Below, in pieces: positions 9,472 through 48,827 of a stretch of 49,438 bases of DNA. Below the pieces are notes generated by a model. The model did no database searches. It worked only from the letters and a program-made list of their open reading frames with translations, and was not told the DNA's origin. Every line of letters begins with the position of its first letter. Position 1 is the stretch's first letter. The translations under genes were made by a program, and so were the position numbers. This stretch comes from a virus (lineage: Duplodnaviria > Heunggongvirae > Uroviricota > Caudoviricetes), in IMG/VR virus record IMGVR_UViG_2861048470_000005. The stretch is one strand, 5' to 3'.

Positions 9472-9903
9472 ATGGCAAAAGTATTTACACAAGAAGAGCG
9501 GGAAAAAATTAAAGGGCAGGTTGTTGAGCTAGTACGCCGGAGTGGGCGCGAGACGTTACGGCAACTGGAAGCCAAGACAGGTGCGACAAGATATCTGATG
9601 AGCGTTCTCGCCAGAGAGCTGGTTGCCAGTGGCGATGTATACAACTCTGGTTACGGGTTATTCCCGTCTGAACAGGCTCGTAAGGACTGGCAAAATGCCC
9701 GCAAAAAACTATCCAGGGCAAAGGTGAAGAAACCATCTGTGGTTGATCCGGACCTTATCTGGTCATTACCAGACGGAGAAATACGCCGCTACGACAGGCG
9801 TCTGAACATAATCTGTCGCGAGTGCCGGAAGAGCGAAGTTATGCAGCGTGTGCTGGCGTTTTATCAGAATGGTTTTCGAGAGAGGCTTGGAGATCAGGGA
9901 TGA
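9472..9903 (+). CDS. Hypothetical prophage protein
   Basis: Start at MAKVFTQEE... preceded by GGAGG (9463-9467). Possible wHTH (...ETLRQLEAKTGATRYLMSVLARELV...) and a basic C-terminal half. Confidence 0.45.
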   Translation: MAKVFTQEEREKIKGQVVELVRRSGRETLRQLEAKTGATRYLMSVLARELVASGDVYNSGYGLFPSEQARKDWQNARKKLSRAKVKKPSVVDPDLIWSLPDGEIRRYDRRLNIICRECRKSEVMQRVLAFYQNGFRERLGDQG

Positions 9904-10096
9904 ATAGAACGATGAAGGATGGAAGCTACATATTCTCGGTACTAAGATTTATTTTTCTGACACAAAATGACCATTTGGCGTTACATAATCCCAAAAAAAC
10001 GTATCAAAAATCTCAAAATGCGTTACGATTAGAGAGTATTTTGATTCTGCGTGCTCATTTTTTGATTGCTGTGGCTTTTTGTTGTGGGAGTGTTGA

Positions 10097-11251
10097 ATGG
10101 ATTATTTATCAGAAGTGTTAAAAATCATTGAAGGTGCAACAAAGGCAAATGCTTCGATGGCTAGTAATTATGCTGGGTTGCTGGCAGATAAGCTCGAACA
10201 AAAAGGGGAGGTCAAGCAAGCCAGAATGATAAGAGAAAGGTTGCTTAGAGCTCCCCAGGCGTTGGCAGGAGCTCAAAGGGCTGGAGGTGGGATATCTCTG
10301 GGCTCATTACCGGTAGATATTGATAGTCGACTCAACACTGTTGATGTCAGTTATCCTAAATTAGACAGTTCAGAGATTTTTCTGCCTGCAGCAATCAGTA
10401 CCCGTGTTGAAGAGTTTATCACTAATGTTCAACGTTATGATGAGTTTGTTAAAGCTGATGCAGCATTGCCGAGTCGTATGCTCGTGTATGGAAAGCCAGG
10501 AACAGGTAAGACTATGTTATCTAAGTACATCGCTACCCGCTTAGATTTTCCACTTCTTACAGTGCGTTGCGATACTTTGATTAGTAGTTTATTGGGACAA
10601 ACCAGCAAAAATCTTAGACAGGTTTTCGATTATGTAATGCAGAGGCCATCAGTGCTTTTTTTAGACGAATTTGATGCTTTAGCTGGAGCAAGAGGTAATG
10701 AGAGAGATATAGGTGAGCTTCAGCGAGTTGTCATTTCACTATTGCAGAATATGGATGCGGCATCAGAGGATACGGTAATTATTGCCTCAACTAACCATGA
10801 GCAACTTCTGGATCCTGCAATCTGGAGGCGATTTAGCTTCAGAATTCCAATGCCTCTGCCTGACATACATCAGAGAGAGTTAATTTGGAAAAATCGTTTA
10901 AAGAATATGATATGTAGCGATCTAGATTTAAGTGATTTATCAAGAAAATCGGAGGGATTATCCGGAGCAATAATTGAACAGGTGAGCTTGGATGCACGTA
11001 GGGATGCAGTTATTGAAGGTGCAAGTGTGATAAATCACCATAAATTGTATAGGCGTTTGTATCTTGCGCAATCGCTTATGGAAGGTGTAAATTTAAGCAC
11101 TTACGAAGATGAAATTCGTTGGTTACGTTCTAAAGATAAAAAATTATTTTCTATCAGAGTTCTTGCTAATTTGTACAAACTTACATCAAGAGTAATTTCA
11201 AACATTCTGAAGGAGTCAGGAGCATATGAGCAGAAGGGGTACACAGTTTAG
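10097..11251 (+). CDS. AAA+ ATPase (classical AAA family), first gene of a two-gene cargo operon; candidate IetA-like defence ATPase
   Basis: 384-aa ORF with Walker A GKPGTGKT, Walker B VLFLDEFDAL, sensor-1 IIASTNHEQ and arginine-finger region WRRFSFR. The DNA is visibly more AT-rich than flanking phage genes. GGGAG lies upstream of the ATG. Confidence 0.85.
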   Translation: MDYLSEVLKIIEGATKANASMASNYAGLLADKLEQKGEVKQARMIRERLLRAPQALAGAQRAGGGISLGSLPVDIDSRLNTVDVSYPKLDSSEIFLPAAISTRVEEFITNVQRYDEFVKADAALPSRMLVYGKPGTGKTMLSKYIATRLDFPLLTVRCDTLISSLLGQTSKNLRQVFDYVMQRPSVLFLDEFDALAGARGNERDIGELQRVVISLLQNMDAASEDTVIIASTNHEQLLDPAIWRRFSFRIPMPLPDIHQRELIWKNRLKNMICSDLDLSDLSRKSEGLSGAIIEQVSLDARRDAVIEGASVINHHKLYRRLYLAQSLMEGVNLSTYEDEIRWLRSKDKKLFSIRVLANLYKLTSRVISNILKESGAYEQKGYTV

Positions 11252-13490
11252 TAACGCAAAAGTTACAAACCCAATGTTAAGAATCCCTTTTTCCAGTAGT
11301 GACTTGGGTGCAATAGTAAACGCTGGCGGTGGGGCAAAGGTATTGGTTGATGTAACAGCCGAATATAGACAAGGGCTAGTAAGAAATTTAACAACCAGTA
11401 AACATTATTTAGAATCCAAACTTTCAGAGTACCCTGGAAGCTTGGGTACTTTGGTTTTCAAATTAAGAGACCAGGGAATAGCCAAAACGCATAGGCCGAA
11501 CAAAATTGCTCAAGAGGCTGGATTGCAAAATGCCGGTCATGCCAAAATAGATGAAATGTTGGTTGCTGCTCATGCCGGCTGTTTTGACGTATTAGAGTCA
11601 GTCATTTTACATCGGAATATTAAAGCGATTTTGGCTAATCTAAGCGCGATTGAGCGCATTGAACCTTGGGATGAGAATAGGAAGGTTCCAGGAGGCACTG
11701 ATGGTTTGTTTGAATCATCAAACATCCTTGTACGACTATTTGAGTACACAGGTGAAGATGCAACTTACAACAACTATGAAAACGTTATTTCTATATTAGA
11801 ACAACACGGAGTTAAATATGATGAGATTAGACCAAAATGTGGTCTTCCCTTATTAAGGATAATGGATTTATCCCCAAATGATAGATATATATTAGACATT
11901 CTCATTGATTACCCGGGTATAAGAACGTTAATTCCAGAACCAAAATATTCAGCATTCCCGGTTAGTGTAAGTGATTCTGTTGGCATTGAAACAAATAGCT
12001 TTCCCGTACCATCAGAAGAATTACCCATTGTTGCTGTATTTGACACTGGGGTAAGCCCCATCGCGGCAACAATTACTCCTTGGGTAGTGAGTAGGGAAAC
12101 ATACGTAATTCCTCCTGATACGAGTTATGAACATGGGACTATGGTGTCTTCATTGATATCAGGCGCTCATTTTTTAAATGACAATCATCCATGGATTCCT
12201 GATACAAAATCTAAAATCCATGATGTTTGTGCTTTAGATGGAAATGGATCTTATATATCAGATTTAATTCTGAGGCTAGCAGATGCTGTAAATAAAAGAC
12301 CAGATATAAAAGTCTGGAATTTGTCTTTGGGAGGCGGACCATGTAATGAGCAGATGTTTAGTGATTTTGCGATGGAGTTAGATCGGCTCAGCGATAAATT
12401 TGGTATTTTGTTTGTAGTTGCTGCAGGTAATTATGTAGATGAACCTATACGTACATGGCCAAATCCTGATCCGCTTGGAGGTGCTGATTTAATTTCCTCT
12501 CCTGGAGAGTCAGTCCGAGCACTAACAGTTGGTTCAGTTTCTCATATGGAAGCTAATGATGCTTTAAGTGAAATTGGAACACCGACACCATATACTCGTC
12601 GTGGCCCTGGGCCTGTATTTACTCCAAAGCCAGATATAATCCATGCTGGCGGTGGGGTTCATAGACCTTGGAATGTAGGAGCAAGCAGTTTAAAGGTCGT
12701 AGGGCCAGATAATAGGCTTTGCTCTAATTTTGGTACTAGTTTTGCTGCTCCAATTGTGGCAAGTTTAGCTGCGCATACATGGCAGAGAATAGCCACTAAT
12801 GCAGACTTTAATGTTTCACCATCATTGATTAAAGCATTATTAATTCATTCCGCTCAATTATCTTCTCCTGATTACTCGCCAAGTGAAAGACGCTATTTGG
12901 GAGCGGGAATTCCTAATGAGGTTATTGAGACCTTATATGATAGTGATGATAGGTTTACTCTGATTTTCCAAACATTCTTGGTTCCTGGGGTGAGGTGGAG
13001 AAAGGAAAACTATCCCATACCATCGGCACTTATTCAAAATGGAAAATTTAAAGGTGAGATTGTAATTACTGCTGCATATGCACCACCACTGAACTCTAAT
13101 GCCGGCAGTGAATATGTTCGCGCAAACGTAGAGCTAAGTTTTGGCTTAATTGAGAATAATACTATAAAAGGAAAAGTACCTATGGAAGGAGAAAACGGTC
13201 AATCTGGATATGAGAGAGCTCAAATTGAGCATGGTGGAAAGTGGTCACCAGTAAAAATTCATCGCAAGGCATTTAATAAAGGAATTACTTCGGGTAACTG
13301 GGCTCTTCAAGCTAAAACAACGTTGAGAGCGAATGAACCGGCCTTAATGGAGCCTTTACCTGTAACTATTGTAGTAACTTTAAAATCATTAGATGGAAAC
13401 ACACAAGTTTATGCTGATGGCGTAAGAGCTTTAAATGCTAATAACTGGGCTCACTATCCATTGCCTGCTCGTGTGCCAGTTTCCGTATAA
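11226..13490 (+). CDS. S8 family subtilisin-like serine peptidase with N- and C-terminal extensions; candidate IetS-like defence protease
   Basis: 754-aa ORF. Catalytic residues in S8 order: Asp (VAVFDTGVS), His (YEHGTMVSSLISG), oxyanion Asn (VVAAGNY), Ser (GTSFAAPIVASLAAH). Tandem AGGAG ribosome-binding sites at 11212-11221 and a 26-nt overlap with the ATPase stop suggest translational coupling. Confidence 0.85.
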   Translation: MSRRGTQFSNAKVTNPMLRIPFSSSDLGAIVNAGGGAKVLVDVTAEYRQGLVRNLTTSKHYLESKLSEYPGSLGTLVFKLRDQGIAKTHRPNKIAQEAGLQNAGHAKIDEMLVAAHAGCFDVLESVILHRNIKAILANLSAIERIEPWDENRKVPGGTDGLFESSNILVRLFEYTGEDATYNNYENVISILEQHGVKYDEIRPKCGLPLLRIMDLSPNDRYILDILIDYPGIRTLIPEPKYSAFPVSVSDSVGIETNSFPVPSEELPIVAVFDTGVSPIAATITPWVVSRETYVIPPDTSYEHGTMVSSLISGAHFLNDNHPWIPDTKSKIHDVCALDGNGSYISDLILRLADAVNKRPDIKVWNLSLGGGPCNEQMFSDFAMELDRLSDKFGILFVVAAGNYVDEPIRTWPNPDPLGGADLISSPGESVRALTVGSVSHMEANDALSEIGTPTPYTRRGPGPVFTPKPDIIHAGGGVHRPWNVGASSLKVVGPDNRLCSNFGTSFAAPIVASLAAHTWQRIATNADFNVSPSLIKALLIHSAQLSSPDYSPSERRYLGAGIPNEVIETLYDSDDRFTLIFQTFLVPGVRWRKENYPIPSALIQNGKFKGEIVITAAYAPPLNSNAGSEYVRANVELSFGLIENNTIKGKVPMEGENGQSGYERAQIEHGGKWSPVKIHRKAFNKGITSGNWALQAKTTLRANEPALMEPLPVTIVVTLKSLDGNTQVYADGVRALNANNWAHYPLPARVPVSV

Positions 13491-13504
13491 CAACTATATA
13501 AATC

Positions 13505-13535
13505 AAACCCGCTGTAGCGGGTTTGATTTATTTGT
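13505..13535 (+). terminator. Rho-independent terminator after the ATPase/peptidase operon
   Basis: Hairpin AAACCCGCT-GTAG-AGCGGGTTT followed by GATTTATTT, 15 nt after the peptidase stop. Confidence 0.5.
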
Positions 13536-13898
13536 GGGTGTGTTTTATAAAAATACCGCCCATACACAACAAAATACAAAAAGTATTACAGATAAAAAAG
13601 GAGCGTAATGTGCAGATTTGTTGTTTTCCATATTTACTCACCTTAATATGATTAATCCCGATAAGATTGTTATTTCAGCGGTTTTCAAATGAAATATTAT
13701 GCTAATTTGGCAGATTTGCATAACATTAAAATTTAATTTATCTAACCGCTTTTAATAATAAGCGTTGTATTTTTATCCCAGCAATCTGTTGTTTGGTTTT
13801 TATTCCATTAAGGTGGGGCTTTACACTGGAGCCAGTTTATTTATACTTCATACGTCAGCCTGAACAACTGGCACCTGCTGCGCCAGCAGAGAAAACAG

Positions 13899-14177
13899 AT
13901 GGCGCACGATACCAAATTTTACAATTCGGATAACTCTGCCGCCCCTGCCAGCAGGCACGGGCGGCGTTCTCATGCATTCAAATCTGACTGGTATCAGCAC
14001 GACCCCTGCACCGAAGAACAGGCTGAATGGCTCATTCAGTGTTACCGCGGGCGCGGATGCGAGGTTAAAAAAGCCCTTAGCCTCGACTACCGTCACTGGA
14101 TAATCTCCGTCAGGCTCCCTTACTCAGAACGGCCAGCGCGTCCGTCCCGCACATTCCAGCAACGGATCTGGAGGTAA
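13899..14177 (+). CDS. Hypothetical protein (uncertain)
   Basis: 92-aa ORF after a ~360-bp AT-rich intergenic region; unrecognised and overlapped by an antisense ORF. Could be coding, or part of the upstream region of the next gene. Confidence 0.25.
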   Translation: MAHDTKFYNSDNSAAPASRHGRRSHAFKSDWYQHDPCTEEQAEWLIQCYRGRGCEVKKALSLDYRHWIISVRLPYSERPARPSRTFQQRIWR

Positions 14178-14178
14178 T

Positions 14179-15237
14179 GTGCGGGTATTACTTCGATCTG
14201 TTCTGGTACCGGAACTCGGTCTGGTTATCGTTAAGCCAGGCCGTGAATCAATGTCAGCATTCCATAACGGCAGAATACTGGTGGAGCCGGAACCAAAAAG
14301 CATGCGTAATCTGCCGTCCGGGGTCGTTCCTGCCGCTCGCCAGCCGCTGGTGGAAGACAAAACATTGCTGCCGTTTTTCAGCGACGAACGAGTGATTCGT
14401 GCTGCTGGTGGCGCTGGCGCATTGTCTGACTGGTTACTGCGCCATGTTAAATCCTGCCAGTGGCCACACGGCGATTATCACCACAGTGAAACCGTCATTC
14501 ACCGTTATGGTACCGGCGCAATGGTGTTGTGCTGGCACTGCGACAACCAGTTGCGTGACCAGACCTCAGAATCACTTGAGCAACTTGCTCACCAAAACTT
14601 GTCAGCATGGATGATTGACGTCATCCGTCACGCAATCAGCGGTACGCAGGAGAGGGAGTTATCGCTGGCCGAATTATCCTGGTGGGCGGTCTGCAATCAG
14701 GTGGCTGATGCGCTTCCGGAGTCTGTATCGTGTCGTTCACTGGGATTACCGGTGGAAAAAATCCGCTCCGTATACCGTGAGAGTGACATCGTACCGGGAG
14801 AACAGACTGCCACCAGCATACTGAAGCAGCGCACAAAAAATATTGCGCTGCCACTTCACGCCCACCAGCAACAGCCCCCACTCCAGGAAAAGACGTTAGT
14901 AAGCATCGCCGTTGATCCGGAGTCTCCGGCTCAGTATCTCCAGCGCCAGAAACCACAACGGGAAGAGATGCCTGTATACACGCGCTGGGTAAAAACGCAG
15001 AAATGCATGACGTGCGGTAATCAGGCAGATGATCCGCATCACATCATTGGTCATGGCCTGGGAGGTATGGGAACAAAGGCTGATGATTTGTTTGTTATTC
15101 CGCTGTGCCGTAAATGTCATAACGAACTGCACGCCGGGGTAAAAGATTTTGAAGAAAAATACGGCAGCCAGCTGTTGTTGCTGATTCGTTTTTTAATGCA
15201 CGCGAGAAATTCGGGTGTCCTGAAGTGGAAAGCATGA
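14179..15237 (+). CDS. DUF968-like nin-region protein with C-terminal Cys/His HNH-like cluster (YdfU-like)
   Basis: 352-aa ORF with a C-terminal CMTCGN...HHIIGHG...CRKCHNELH motif; located immediately upstream of rusA, as in cryptic E. coli prophages (recall). Confidence 0.55.
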   Translation: MRVLLRSVLVPELGLVIVKPGRESMSAFHNGRILVEPEPKSMRNLPSGVVPAARQPLVEDKTLLPFFSDERVIRAAGGAGALSDWLLRHVKSCQWPHGDYHHSETVIHRYGTGAMVLCWHCDNQLRDQTSESLEQLAHQNLSAWMIDVIRHAISGTQERELSLAELSWWAVCNQVADALPESVSCRSLGLPVEKIRSVYRESDIVPGEQTATSILKQRTKNIALPLHAHQQQPPLQEKTLVSIAVDPESPAQYLQRQKPQREEMPVYTRWVKTQKCMTCGNQADDPHHIIGHGLGGMGTKADDLFVIPLCRKCHNELHAGVKDFEEKYGSQLLLLIRFLMHARNSGVLKWKA

Positions 15238-16579: not shown

Positions 16580-16655
16580 GGCCCTTTAGCTCAGTGGTGA
16601 GAGCGAGCGACTCATAATCGCCAGGTCGCTGGTTCAAATCCAGCAAGGGCCACCA
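16580..16655 (+). tRNA. tRNA with anticodon CAU (Met, or Ile2 if lysidinylated), encoded CCA
   Basis: 76-nt sequence folds by hand into a cloverleaf: acceptor GGCCCTT/AAGGGCC, anticodon loop cuCAUaa, T-loop GGTTCAAATCC, 3' CCA. Confidence 0.8.
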
Positions 16656-16755: not shown

Positions 16756-16829
16756 GCGTTGTTAGCTCAGCCGGACAGAGCAATTGCCTTCTAAGCAATC
16801 GGTCACTGGTTCGAATCCAGTACAGCGCG
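16756..16829 (+). tRNA. tRNA-Arg (anticodon UCU)
   Basis: 74-nt cloverleaf: acceptor GCGTTGT/ACAGCGC (one G-U pair), anticodon stem ATTGC/GCAAT with loop ctTCTaa, T-loop GGTTCGAATCC; no encoded CCA. Confidence 0.8.
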
Positions 16830-16942
16830 CTATATTCATTCTTCCAGATTCCTTCCGGCAGAGCCTTATACTGAAATATACCTGGCTCAGGATATTGTTG
16901 AAAATATTTTATGTTTGTCAAAAATAAAAGTTCTGTTAAGTA

Positions 16943-43442: not shown

Positions 43443-44042
43443 ATGCGTAAAGTTTGTGCAGCCATTTTGTCCGCAGCCATCTGTCTGGCCGTATCCGGTG
43501 CGCCTGCATGGGCGTCTGAGCAGCAGGCCACACTGAGCGCAGGGTATCTTCATGCCCGTACGAACGCTCCCGGCAGCGATAATCTGAACGGGATTAACGT
43601 GAAATACCGTTATGAGTTTACGGACACGCTGGGGCTGATTACGTCATTCAGTTATGCCAACGCTGGAGATGAGCAAAAAACGCATTACAGCGATACCCGC
43701 TGGCATGAAGATTCCGTTCGTAACCGCTGGTTCAGCGTAATGGCGGGGCCGTCTGTGCGCGTGAATGAATGGTTCAGCGCGTATGCGATGGCGGGTGTGG
43801 CTTACAGCCGTGTGTCGACTTTCTCCGGGGATTATCTCCGCGTAACTGACAACAAGGGGAAAACGCACGACGTGCTGACCGGAAGTGATGACGGTCGCCA
43901 CAGCAACACGTCTCTGGCGTGGGGGGCTGGCGTGCAGTTTAACCCGACCGAATCCGTGGCCGTTGATGTCGCTTATGAAGGCTCCGGCAGTGGCAACTGG
44001 CGCACTGACGGTTTCATCGTGGGTGTTGGTTATAAGTTCTGA
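43443..44042 (+). CDS. lom: Lom outer-membrane protein (Ail/Lom family beta-barrel)
   Basis: 199-aa ORF with a signal peptide (MRKVCAAILSAAICLAVSGAPAWA) and a C-terminal ...GVGYKF beta-barrel signature, in the lambda lom position. Confidence 0.85.
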   Translation: MRKVCAAILSAAICLAVSGAPAWASEQQATLSAGYLHARTNAPGSDNLNGINVKYRYEFTDTLGLITSFSYANAGDEQKTHYSDTRWHEDSVRNRWFSVMAGPSVRVNEWFSAYAMAGVAYSRVSTFSGDYLRVTDNKGKTHDVLTGSDDGRHSNTSLAWGAGVQFNPTESVAVDVAYEGSGSGNWRTDGFIVGVGYKF

Positions 44043-48158: not shown

Positions 48159-48827
48159 CTATTTTTTCCCTGAAGCGGAAAACATTACTACAGTACCTTG
48201 AACCTTGGTTTTAACATTCTCGAAATGCTCTGAGAGTATATGTGTTAAGCCTTCTTCGGAATCTTTTGTGTTTGAAAAGATGCCTTTCTGATTGTAAATG
48301 CGCATCAGTTTTTGACCGAAGCTATTGTGCACAACTCCATCGCCAAGAATTGTGGCTCCGTATAGAGTTCCATCGTCAGTTAAGGCCTGCGCCGCATTGC
48401 GTATTACACAGCTTTTTGTAGATATATTTCCAGGCAGGCAGTGAAGAAGGTAAAACATGGAAATGGAATCAAATTGACCATGTAACGCCGCGGGATAAGG
48501 TTCAAAAACATCATGGCTAATTTTATGTTTAATTTTTGATTCCCCAGCCCTTGTAGATGCCGCGTTCAGGCTAACTTCGTTCAAATCCATTAAAGATATC
48601 AGACTACTCTCAGGTACGTGAGTAAGGTAAAACCCAGTTCCAACACCAATATCCAGATGGTTGTTACCTAAATGTTCCAGAAAGTGTGGAAGAAGGTGTT
48701 CCTTTGTAGGACATCCCCATGCAAGCCGATTTGATACTCCCAAAACCCACCAGTCATAAAGCTTTAGGGTAAGTGGTGTGTAAATTTTAGCCCCATCATC
48801 TGTGTTTTTTTTCATTGATTTCACCAT
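48159..48827 (-). CDS. Class I SAM-dependent methyltransferase (moron)
   Basis: 222-aa minus-strand ORF with SAM-binding motif I (LDIGVGTGFY), in AT-rich DNA, oriented against the surrounding late genes. Confidence 0.7.
   Translation of the reverse strand: MVKSMKKNTDDGAKIYTPLTLKLYDWWVLGVSNRLAWGCPTKEHLLPHFLEHLGNNHLDIGVGTGFYLTHVPESSLISLMDLNEVSLNAASTRAGESKIKHKISHDVFEPYPAALHGQFDSISMFYLLHCLPGNISTKSCVIRNAAQALTDDGTLYGATILGDGVVHNSFGQKLMRIYNQKGIFSNTKDSEEGLTHILSEHFENVKTKVQGTVVMFSASGKK

What the first reader, a model, noticed from the sequence alone, without database searches (positions are those of the whole stretch)
9904..13535. AT-rich two-gene cargo operon: AAA+ ATPase translationally coupled to an S8 subtilase (IetA/IetS-like candidate anti-phage system)
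Between the replication genes and the nin region, a slot where lambdoid phages commonly carry morons, sits a visibly lower-GC operon (10097..11251 and 11226..13490). The first gene is a classical AAA ATPase with intact Walker A (GKPGTGKT), Walker B (FLDEFDA), sensor-1 and arginine-finger region. The second is a 754-aa protein with a complete S8 catalytic set (Asp in VFDTGV, His in HGTMVSS, Asn in AAGNY, Ser in GTSFAAP), plus ~260-aa N-terminal and ~200-aa C-terminal extensions of unknown function. The genes overlap by 26 nt, with a strong tandem AGGAG ribosome-binding site inside the ATPase 3' end, and the operon ends in a clean intrinsic terminator (13505-13535). This gene pair matches the ATPase-plus-serine-protease architecture I recall being reported as the Iet (ietAS) defence system; its mechanism, trigger and protease substrate are, to my knowledge, unknown. 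Carriage on a prophage that is itself packaging-defective (IS in terminase) fits a domesticated host-protective role.
Basis: partly seen in the sequence, partly recalled or inferred. Interest (0 to 1): 0.85.

Follow-up and report, generated by a model that had tools for sequence, protein, structure and literature searches.

The report
Known IetAS anti-phage operon in prophage
This is a standard copy of the already catalogued IetAS (IteA/IteS) ATPase-plus-protease toxin-antitoxin and anti-phage system, carried as cargo in an E. coli lambdoid prophage; the find is ordinary, but the DNA upstream of it holds a family-wide array of 21-bp-phased repeats, not mentioned in the papers I could search, that suggests the operon regulates itself.

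Summary
Two overlapping genes (10097-11251, 11226-13490) encode an intact classical AAA+ ATPase and an intact S8 subtilase, in a low-GC cassette that ends in a hairpin terminator.

Both proteins pass NCBIfam's equivalog cut-offs for IteA and IteS and match PADLOC IetA and IetS full-length. The window is 100% identical to E. coli 602354, where RefSeq already names the genes iteA/iteS. The same 3.6 kb occurs at 99% identity or more in 78 of 5,426 complete E. coli genomes and in one deposited phage.

IetAS is known as a toxin-antitoxin pair (protease toxin, ATPase antitoxin) and as an abortive-infection defence. Its molecular mechanism was still called unknown in 2026. The finding is therefore real but already known.

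The "domesticated, packaging-defective prophage" argument fails, because the IS/terminase junction is private to this strain.

Additional results:
- The mobile module spans about 9868-13883.
- IetS models as a propeptide-like domain, an S8 core and a C-terminal beta domain.
- IetA ends in a confident three-helix tail.
- The leader (9937-10083) is an array of CGTWWC-type units phased at exactly 21 nt. The array recurs across phyla, which suggests autoregulation.

The parts
9868..13883 (+). Whole mobile cassette (about 4.0 kb, low GC): leader, iteA, iteS, terminator and a non-conserved AT-rich 3' tail
   Evidence: Homology to a hokD-carrying relative (L007) stops at 9867 and resumes at 13840. 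Carriers with a different nin-region backbone (L002, L004-L006) diverge at 13881-13883. GC is 0.395 over 9904-13990. The 3' tail after the terminator is not conserved between genera.
9937..10083 (+). Leader array: seven 21-nt-phased units headed CGGTAC, TGACAC, CGTTAC, CGTATC, CGTTAC, TGATTC and TGATTG. Candidate operator array overlapping the promoter.
   Evidence: Register printed. Cores at 9979, 10000 and 10021 are exactly 21 nt apart, and 0 of 200,000 shuffles give a phased triple. The GWWACG core occurs 1.76 times per leader against 0.20 in control regions, and spacing peaks at 20-22 and 41-42 nt across 74 loci. The block 10000-10030 is nearly invariant in four genera.
10001..10029 (+). 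Candidate promoter: -35 GTATCA (10001-10006), 17-nt spacer, -10 TACGAT (10024-10029)
   Evidence: Weak match to consensus. The layout and the 17-nt spacing are conserved in Klebsiella, Morganella, Leclercia, Citrobacter and many Betaproteobacteria, where it reads GGTACA-17-TACGAT. No transcription start site data.
10097..11251 (+). iteA/ietA: 384-aa classical-clade AAA+ ATPase (the antitoxin). N-terminal three-helix bundle (aa 4-62), AAA+ core and lid (aa 98-329), C-terminal three-helix tail (aa 336-372).
11211..11222 (+). Tandem AGGAG Shine-Dalgarno for iteS, inside the 3' end of iteA (26-nt gene overlap, 11226-11251)
   Evidence: Gene calls for seven orthologous loci also show overlaps, of 20-41 nt. 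The pRi1724 pair abuts instead.
11226..13490 (+). iteS/ietS: 754-aa cytoplasmic S8 subtilase (the toxin/effector). N-terminal about 262 aa with two beta-alpha-beta-beta-alpha-beta units, S8 core (aa 268-545), C-terminal beta domain (aa about 570-754).
13498..13545 (+). Intrinsic-terminator hairpin (15-bp stem, core AAACCCGC/GCGGGTTT) followed by a T-rich tail
   Evidence: The hairpin core is shared with the Leclercia orthologue.

Best explanation
The locus is a genuine two-gene IetAS (NCBI spelling IteA/IteS) system. It is a toxin-antitoxin-type abortive-infection anti-phage module, carried as a horizontally mobile low-GC cassette in the early-right region of a lambdoid prophage integrated at ompW in E. 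coli 602354.

Shown here:
- Family membership, intact active sites, translational coupling of the two genes, and the cassette boundaries and mobility.
- Obligate pairing of the two genes across phyla.
- No signal peptide on the protease, so it should act in the cytoplasm.

Taken from the literature on homologues:
- IetS is the toxin and its protease activity is needed for defence.
- IetA is the antitoxin and cannot be inactivated without killing the cell.
- A Bacillus homologue acts by abortive infection and is triggered by a single phage protein.

Inferred working model:
1. IetA forms a ring-shaped classical AAA+ remodeller, closest to the FtsH ATPase module and to p97 D2. It uses ATP to keep IetS inactive.
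2. IetS is built like an unprocessed pro-subtilase: a propeptide-like domain, the S8 core and a C-terminal beta domain.
3. A phage product that diverts or blocks IetA releases the protease.
4. Cleavage of unknown host or phage proteins then stops growth before phage release.
5. Expression is probably self-limited. IetA's C-terminal three-helix tail is proposed to bind the 21-nt-phased repeat array that covers the weak promoter, as antitoxins do in type II toxin-antitoxin operons.
For: Identity:
- NCBIfam equivalogs above cut-off and full-length PADLOC IetA and IetS hits.
- RefSeq annotates iteA/iteS at the 100%-identical locus.

Active sites.

Obligate pairing: 73 of 76 IetA loci from different species have IetS downstream on the same strand. 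The other three are cut by a contig end or are fragments.

Mobility and cargo status:
- Boundaries and alternative cargo in the same slot.
- The same slot is used in Klebsiella and Leclercia prophages. In Morganella the pair lies between icd and int, and in Providencia between holin and lysozyme.

Literature:
- Toxin-antitoxin behaviour and the unclonable ietA mutant: PMC13069673, PMC8562856, PMC5006074.
- Abortive infection and the yosG trigger: 10.1101/2022.08.27.505566.
- An E. coli (ECOR52) ietAS cloned and tested, with prophage location noted: 10.1101/2022.08.21.504612.

Structure:
- IetS model has pLDDT 84.8 and pTM 0.87.

Autoregulation:
- Phased array. It is also present in the pRi1724 and Enterococcus leaders.
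- Tail helices at aa 336-372 have pLDDT above 90.
- The pRi1724 IetA tail reads GGADTARILGVSRQA.
- sgiAT is nearly silent from its own promoter.
Against: - No experiment exists on this allele, and I could not show that it equals the ECOR52 or Gao 2020 alleles.
- ietAS alone gave only limited protection in E. coli.
- The primary papers (Gao 2020, Yamamoto 2009) are not held, so I read them only through citing papers.
- The HTH reading of the tail has no significant sequence support: best PDB profile hit E = 0.006 to a mitoribosomal protein, and the P1 ParA HTH region only at E = 1.5.
- IetA's pore loop 1 is Leu-Leu-Gly, not aromatic-hydrophobic-Gly, so processive unfolding is not assured.
- No strong promoter was found. 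Expression in the lysogen is therefore unproven and could depend on read-through from the phage early-right promoter.
Confidence: 0.85

Rival explanations
1. The pair is mainly an addiction (post-segregational killing) module that stabilises the prophage or island that carries it. On this view phage defence is weak or incidental for this allele.
For: The founding function of IetAS was plasmid stabilisation on pTiC58. SgiAT stabilises SGI1. Mycoplasma homologues are chromosomal toxin-antitoxin pairs. The E. coli ECOR52 ietAS alone gave limited anti-phage activity. The cassette always rides on mobile elements.
Against: The two roles are not exclusive. A Bacillus homologue protects by abortive infection with a defined phage trigger. 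An ietHAS variant protects against T7 and needs the protease activity. sgiAT gave no post-segregational killing from its own promoter.
Confidence: 0.2
2. The 21-nt-phased repeats are not an operator for IetA. They might be promoter or UP-like elements, sites for a host nucleoid protein or phage regulator, or a 5'-UTR RNA feature.
For: No binding data exist. The tail has no significant HTH sequence match. The leader is AT-rich. Two of the heads coincide with the candidate -35 and -10 hexamers.
Against: The same core and 21-nt phase recur in Alpha-, Beta- and Gammaproteobacteria, Enterococcus and Actinobacteria. Host factors differ between these groups, which argues for a binder encoded by the cassette itself. 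Copies occur in both orientations, and 11 of 25 arrays have stops in all six frames, so the array is not coding. Rfam finds nothing.
Confidence: 0.3
3. The pair serves the phage's own lytic cycle, for example host takeover or morphogenetic proteolysis, and is expressed only from the early-right operon after induction.
For: It lies inside the early-right transcription unit with no terminator upstream, and no strong promoter of its own is detectable.
Against: Most related prophages lack it and carry other cargo in the same slot. It has foreign GC and codon composition. The prophage already encodes its own head-maturation S49 peptidase. The same pair occurs outside lambdoid early regions and on plasmids.
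Confidence: 0.04
4. A secreted subtilase with a dedicated chaperone or export ATPase.
For: The subtilase fold with a propeptide-like domain and a C-terminal beta domain resembles secreted enzymes such as Tk-SP and KP-43.
Against: The N-terminus (MSRRGTQFSNAKVTNPMLRIPFSSSD...) has no signal peptide or hydrophobic stretch. Both proteins are equivalog-level IteA/IteS matches. Homologues are toxic inside cells.
Confidence: 0.01

Closest known systems
IetAS / IteA-IteS anti-phage system (Gao et al. 2020; PADLOC PDLC02196 and PDLC02197; NCBIfam NF042959 and NF042956)
   Same: Full-length profile matches above the curated cut-offs, the same gene order, overlapping genes and intact catalytic residues. 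RefSeq gives this exact locus those names.
   Different: Nothing structural. This allele has not been tested experimentally, as far as I could establish.
IetA/IetS toxin-antitoxin pair of Agrobacterium pTiC58 (Yamamoto et al. 2009). Compared here through the related pRi1724 pair.
   Same: ATPase followed by protease, of similar sizes (374 and 752 aa). The AAA+ core is 39% identical and the S8 plus C-terminal domain 28% identical. The leader also carries TTTAC(G/A) repeats in 21-nt phase.
   Different: A distant branch. The N-terminal about 260 aa of IetS and the IetA tail do not align by BLASTP. The genes abut and do not overlap. The pair is plasmid-borne, with a stabilisation role.
SgiAT of Salmonella Genomic Island 1, and TA132/133 of Mycoplasma mycoides
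   Same: An AAA ATPase antitoxin with a subtilisin-like toxin, shown to be toxic and neutralisable in E. coli or Mycoplasma.
   Different: Different carriers (an integrative mobilisable island, or the chromosome). A defence role was not tested in those studies.
ietHAS (Liu-DS4), a helicase-containing IetAS variant (NAR 2026, PMC13069673)
   Same: Shares the IetA and IetS modules and the requirement for protease activity.
   Different: It needs an extra SNF2-family helicase, IetH. No helicase gene flanks the pair here.
Unprocessed pro-subtilases with C-terminal beta domains (ProN-Tk-SP 3afg, pro-subtilisin E 3whi, CspB 4i0w, KP-43 1wmd)
   Same: Best structural matches to the IetS model. Their aligned lengths exceed a mature S8 domain.
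   Different: Those are secreted or spore enzymes. IetS is cytoplasmic, carries an additional N-terminal domain, and gives no I9 propeptide hit by sequence.
Classical-clade AAA+ remodellers (FtsH ATPase module, p97/Cdc48 D2, VAT, Vps4, ATAD1/Msp1)
   Different: IetA has a single AAA+ module. Its pore loop 1 is Leu-Leu-Gly rather than aromatic. Its N-terminal helical bundle and C-terminal three-helix tail have no Pfam match.

Membership tests
IetAS (IteA/IteS) defence / toxin-antitoxin system | An IetA-type AAA+ ATPase that matches the family profile above the curated threshold | tested here: met
   NCBIfam NF042959 equivalog scores 526.6 bits against a cut-off of 510, covering 1-367 of 367. 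PADLOC PDLC02196 gives 8.9e-143, covering 1-371 of 374.
IetAS (IteA/IteS) defence / toxin-antitoxin system | An IetS-type S8 peptidase that matches the family profile over its full length, extensions included | tested here: met
   NCBIfam NF042956 equivalog scores 1039.4 bits against a cut-off of 900, covering 1-747 of 747. PADLOC PDLC02197 gives 8.5e-300, covering 3-748 of 749.
IetAS (IteA/IteS) defence / toxin-antitoxin system | The two genes are adjacent and co-oriented, ATPase first, forming one operon | tested here: met
   26-nt overlap, an internal Shine-Dalgarno and a single terminator after iteS. The pairing is conserved in 73 of 76 loci from different species.
IetAS (IteA/IteS) defence / toxin-antitoxin system | Catalytically competent ATPase (Walker A and B, sensor 1, Arg fingers) and protease (Asp-His-Asn-Ser) | tested here: met
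   All residues are present and invariant in the family alignments.
IetAS (IteA/IteS) defence / toxin-antitoxin system | Homology to the founding Ti/Ri-plasmid IetA/IetS pair | tested here: met
   Against the pRi1724 pair, IetA is 39% identical (E 7e-62) and IetS 28% identical (E 3e-30). pTiC58 itself was not retrieved.
IetAS (IteA/IteS) defence / toxin-antitoxin system | IetS is toxic and IetA neutralises it | not testable with these tools
   Known only from the literature on homologues.
IetAS (IteA/IteS) defence / toxin-antitoxin system | Protects against phage when expressed | not testable with these tools
   Reported for homologues. Whether this allele equals a tested one could not be established.
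ietHAS (helicase-containing variant) | An SNF2-family helicase gene in the same operon | tested here: not met
   The neighbours are a DUF977 gene upstream and a small hypothetical gene plus DUF968 downstream. There is no helicase.
Type II toxin-antitoxin operon with an autorepressing antitoxin | Repeated operator sites overlapping the promoter | tested here: met
   A 21-nt-phased CGTWWC array lies over the candidate -35 and -10 hexamers and is conserved across phyla. Protein binding has not been shown.
Type II toxin-antitoxin operon with an autorepressing antitoxin | A DNA-binding domain in the antitoxin | tested here: inconclusive
   A confident three-helix tail (aa 336-372, pLDDT above 90) and an HTH-like sequence pattern. 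Against this, there is no Pfam hit and no significant PDB profile hit.
Secreted pro-subtilisin (I9 propeptide plus S8) | Signal peptide and an Inhibitor_I9 propeptide | tested here: not met
   The N-terminus has no hydrophobic stretch, and the N-terminal 262 aa give no Pfam hit at E up to 10. Resemblance to pro-forms at the fold level is only suggestive.
CBASS-associated TRIP13/HORMA regulators | A TRIP13-type ATPase next to HORMA and CD-NTase genes | tested here: not met
   The TRIP13 profile scores only 2.4e-16, against 8.9e-143 for IetA. There are no HORMA or cyclase genes nearby.

The most novel reading that the evidence does not exclude
IetA may be a DNA-binding AAA+ ring. On this reading its C-terminal three-helix tails read a family-wide array of up to seven sites phased at 21 bp, which blankets the operon's promoter. 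The same ring restrains a zymogen-like cytoplasmic subtilase. One ATPase would then couple operon dosage to toxin control, so that titration of IetA by a phage product would both derepress the operon and unleash the protease. No paper in the searchable library describes the array, the tail or this logic.
Probability: 0.35. Interest if true: 0.55.

Novelty: already known. Interest (0 to 1): 0.3.

Why it matters
As a find, it matters little. The locus is already named iteA/iteS in RefSeq, it is detected by PADLOC and NCBIfam, and it is present almost unchanged in 78 of 5,426 complete E. coli genomes (about 1.4%).

Its value is as a clean, compact, natural example of a defence system whose mechanism, trigger in E. 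coli and protease substrates are still unknown.

The side results give concrete handles for that open problem:
- Defined cassette boundaries for cloning with native control (9868-13883).
- A conserved, phased repeat array and a candidate DNA-binding tail, which can be tested for autoregulation.
- A domain map of IetS (propeptide-like domain, S8 core, beta domain) and of IetA (helical bundle, AAA+ module with a Leu-Leu-Gly pore loop, tail) to guide mutagenesis and structural work.

Tried and rejected
- Pfam on the four isolated extension segments (IetA 1-97 and 326-384; IetS 1-262 and 559-754) at E up to 10 gave no hits.
- A profile of the IetA tail against PDB sequences gave nothing significant, so the HTH reading stays an inference.
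- phmmer of IetS against PDB found only weak S8-core hits. No IetS-like structure has been solved.
- Rfam on 9700-14300 gave only a sub-threshold chance hit.
- Consensus promoter scans gave nothing convincing in the leader.
- The AT-rich 3' tail (13536-13883) is not conserved between genera, so I do not treat it as a functional part.
- The primary papers (Gao 2020; Yamamoto 2009) are not held under three identifiers.
- I could not establish whether this allele equals the tested ECOR52 allele.
- Model coordinates are not exposed, so I could not check whether the propeptide-like domain or the linker occludes the active site.
- I first read the Ti/Ri-plasmid pair as a 'compact' variant because the alignments were partial. 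I rejected this once the gene sizes (374 and 752 aa) were seen.
- The idea that the 21-nt period reflects a coding heptad repeat was rejected. Eleven of 25 arrays have stops in all six frames, and the open frames in the others are inconsistent.
- The 'kinase (fragment)' ORF annotated over the leader in ON470595 is therefore likely spurious.

Full report
OBSERVATION.

Every quoted motif is present at the stated place.
- The genes overlap by 26 nt.
- Two AGGAG boxes lie at 11211-11215 and 11218-11222, just before the iteS ATG.
- GC falls to 0.38-0.41 across the pair, against 0.50-0.55 on either side.
- GC3 is 0.32 and 0.27, against 0.44-0.61 in the neighbouring phage genes.
- A 15-bp hairpin at 13498-13531 folds at -27.6 kcal/mol (z = -5.5). 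Its GC-rich core is shared with an orthologous cassette in Leclercia, where a clean U-tract follows it.

The one caveat is that no consensus sigma-70 promoter lies between 9904 and 10097.

WHAT IT IS.

Pfam finds AAA (2.6e-30) and Peptidase_S8 (1.2e-25).

More specific libraries settle the identity.
- PADLOC matches IetA (8.9e-143) and IetS (8.5e-300) end to end.
- NCBIfam's equivalog models IteA_antiphage and IteS_antiphage both score above their curated cut-offs: 526.6 against 510, and 1039.4 against 900.

The window is 100% identical to the chromosome of E. coli strain 602354, a human stool isolate from Bangladesh. RefSeq already labels the genes there as iteA (WP_000385105.1) and iteS (WP_129547548.1).

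The 3.6-kb region occurs at 99% identity or more, as a single chromosomal copy, in 78 of 5,426 complete E. coli genomes. It also occurs in one deposited phage, vB_EcoS-683R6. That record calls IetA 'cell division protein FtsH' and annotates a probably spurious 'kinase (fragment)' ORF over the leader.

The catalytic residues are invariant in family alignments that span 50-100% identity.
- IetS: D273, H303, N402 and S505.
- IetA: K138/T139, D190/E191, N233 and R244/R245. They align to the corresponding p97 positions.

CONTEXT AND MOBILITY.

The host element is a lambdoid prophage integrated at ompW. It runs from the integrase at the start of the window to a duplicated ompW fragment just beyond the window's end.

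Comparison with relatives defines the mobile module as about 9868-13883.
- Homology to a hokD-carrying relative stops at 9867 and resumes at 13840.
- Carriers with a different nin-region backbone diverge at 13881-13883.

In other prophages the same DUF977-to-DUF968 slot holds hokD, queH, paa or a hydrolase. This supports the 'moron slot' idea. Only 7 genomes share this exact backbone, whereas 78 carry the cassette.

Orthologous pairs (59-76% identity) turn up in several places:
- The equivalent slot of Klebsiella and Leclercia prophages.
- Between icd and a prophage integrase in Morganella.
- Between holin and endolysin in a Providencia prophage.

Across one genome per species, 73 of 76 IetA loci have IetS immediately downstream on the same strand. 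The remaining three are cut by a contig end or are fragments.

The IS66-family insertion that splits the large terminase gene is real. Its junction is found in only this one genome out of 5,426. It is therefore a private, recent event and says nothing general about 'domestication'.

WHAT IS KNOWN.

The two primary papers are not in the held library. I rely on papers that cite them.
- IetAS was first described as a plasmid-stabilising toxin-antitoxin pair on pTiC58, with the protease as toxin and the ATPase as antitoxin. Gao et al. 2020 then reported it as an anti-phage system (PMC13069673).
- Homologous pairs behave as toxin-antitoxin systems in SGI1 (sgiAT; PMC5006074) and in mycoplasmas (PMC8562856).
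- A Bacillus cereus IetAS acts by abortive infection and becomes toxic when the SPbeta gene yosG is expressed (10.1101/2022.08.27.505566).
- An E. coli (ECOR52) ietAS was weak alone but synergised with Zorya II against T3. The authors noted its prophage location (10.1101/2022.08.21.504612).
[quoted passage not shown] It reported that protease activity is required and that an ietA mutant could not be constructed.
- I found no later mechanism paper. No IetS-like structure is in the PDB.

ANATOMY AND LIKELY MECHANISM.

IetS has no signal peptide, so it should act in the cytoplasm. An AlphaFold model built on 57 homologues is confident (pLDDT 84.8, pTM 0.87).
- The N-terminal 262 residues contain two beta-alpha-beta-beta-alpha-beta units. 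From general knowledge, this is the fold class of subtilase propeptides.
- The S8 core spans 268-545.
- Residues about 570-754 are mostly beta.

The IetA model (pLDDT 78.2) shows four parts:
- An N-terminal three-helix bundle.
- A lid.
- A confident three-helix tail (aa 336-372).

IetA's pore loop 1 is an invariant Leu-Leu-Gly. The canonical motif is aromatic-hydrophobic-Gly.

Combining these features with the published genetics, the most likely scheme is the following.
1. An IetA ring uses ATP to hold a zymogen-like IetS in check.
2. A phage product diverts or blocks IetA.
3. The freed protease cleaves unknown targets and aborts the infection.

Steps 1 to 3 are inferred. Only the toxin-antitoxin and abortive-infection phenotypes of homologues have been shown.

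AN UNEXPECTED SIDE RESULT: THE LEADER.

The sequences flanking orthologous cassettes from four genera cannot be aligned, with one exception. A block at 10000-10030 (CGTATCAAAAAT-N9-GCGTTACGAT) is almost invariant.

I then examined 74-78 leaders drawn from different species.
- CGTTACGA occurs in 20 leaders and in none of the control regions.
- The degenerate core GWWACG occurs 1.76 times per 200-nt leader, against 0.20 in control regions and 0.34 in shuffles.
- The core is concentrated at -100 to -50 from the start codon.
- Spacing between successive copies peaks sharply at 20-22 nt (29 cases) and at 41-42 nt (10 cases).

In this window, cores lie at 9979, 10000 and 10021, exactly 21 nt apart. 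Printed in that register, the leader from 9937 to 10083 reads as seven units headed CGGTAC, TGACAC, CGTTAC, CGTATC, CGTTAC, TGATTC and TGATTG.
- No phased triple arose in 200,000 shuffles.
- Phased pairs occur in 25 of 78 leaders and in 0 of 78 controls.

The same phase appears in an Enterococcus leader (GTAACG, GTAACG, GAATCG, GTAAC). It also appears in the pRi1724 leader (TTTACA, TTTACG, TTTACG at 2908, 2950, 2971).

Two heads coincide with a weak but positionally conserved promoter: GTATCA, 17 nt, TACGAT in E. coli, and GGTACA, 17 nt, TACGAT in Betaproteobacteria.

The array is not a conserved coding region, and Rfam finds nothing there.

Host factors differ across these phyla, so the binder is probably encoded by the cassette. 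The obvious candidate is IetA's tail. Its consensus is FSLRxLAxLYxLSTRxITNILKE, and its pRi1724 counterpart reads GGADTARILGVSRQA. Both look like a helix-turn-helix. Sequence searches do not confirm this.

Autorepression would fit the report that sgiAT is nearly silent from its own promoter. I found no mention of the array or of autoregulation in the held literature.

COMPARISON AND MEMBERSHIP.

All sequence-testable defining features of IetAS are met:
- Both family profiles are matched.
- Gene order is the same and the genes are translationally coupled.
- The catalytic residues are intact.
- The pair is homologous to the Ti/Ri-plasmid branch, at 39% and 28% identity.

The phenotypic features, toxicity with rescue and phage protection, cannot be tested here.

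It is not the helicase-containing ietHAS variant, because there is no helicase gene. It is not a secreted pro-subtilisin. It is not a TRIP13/HORMA module.

VERDICT.

The finding is real and correctly interpreted, but it is already known and already annotated. Interest is modest, at 0.3.

The residual value lies in three things: the defined cassette, the domain maps, and the phased leader array with its candidate DNA-binding tail. These make the open question of how IetAS is controlled directly testable.

Noticed in passing
window 9937-10083; also L008, L010, L012, L018, L051-L062, L087, L094: The iteA leader is an array of CGTWWC/GWWACG-type units phased at exactly 21 nt. It overlaps a weak, positionally conserved promoter. 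The array recurs in Alpha-, Beta- and Gammaproteobacteria, Enterococcus and Actinobacteria, and the papers I could search do not mention it.
   Followed up: yes
window 22005-26640 (IS genes about 22964-25579): An IS66-family element (ISCro1-like; tnpA, tnpB and transposase) splits the large terminase gene. The junction is found in only 1 of 5,426 complete E. coli genomes, so it is a private, recent event.
   Followed up: yes
window 9900-10121 (equals L002 7997-8218): The phage record ON470595 annotates a 'kinase (fragment)' ORF across the leader array and calls IetA 'cell division protein FtsH'. Both look like annotation artefacts. RefSeq does not call this ORF, and the leader is not conserved as coding sequence.
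   Followed up: partly
L011 4842-5761 (Morganella metagenome contig): iteA is split into two ORFs (136 and 159 aa) upstream of an intact iteS. This is odd if IetA is an essential antitoxin. It may be an assembly error or a tolerated or compensated state.
   Followed up: no
L016 1496-5896 (Providencia): An orthologous IetAS pair (59% identity) sits between the holin and endolysin genes of a prophage lysis cassette. This is a different cargo slot from the one in E. coli.
   Followed up: no
window 16580-16655 and 16756-16830: Two prophage tRNA genes lie downstream of the Q-like antiterminator. ARAGORN reads the first as tRNA-Met (CAT), while RefSeq labels it tRNA-Ile, presumably the lysidine-modified type. 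The second is tRNA-Arg (TCT), which reads the AGA codon (rare in E. coli, from general knowledge).
   Followed up: no
window 48159-48827 (- strand): A class I SAM-dependent methyltransferase gene lies on the opposite strand in a low-GC stretch (about 0.42) just after the tail-fibre assembly gene, near the right prophage end. It is another likely cargo gene.
   Followed up: no
window 17744-18079 (- strand) and 43443-44042 (+ strand): Further host-directed cargo in the same prophage: the anti-adapter IraM, in a GC dip of 0.41, and an Ail/Lom-family outer-membrane protein.
   Followed up: no
IetA residues 163-170 (window about 10583-10606): Pore loop 1 of IetA is an invariant Ser-Leu-Leu-Gly-Gln-Thr. 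It aligns to p97 D1 KLAG and D2 MWFG, so the canonical aromatic residue is missing across the whole family.
   Followed up: partly
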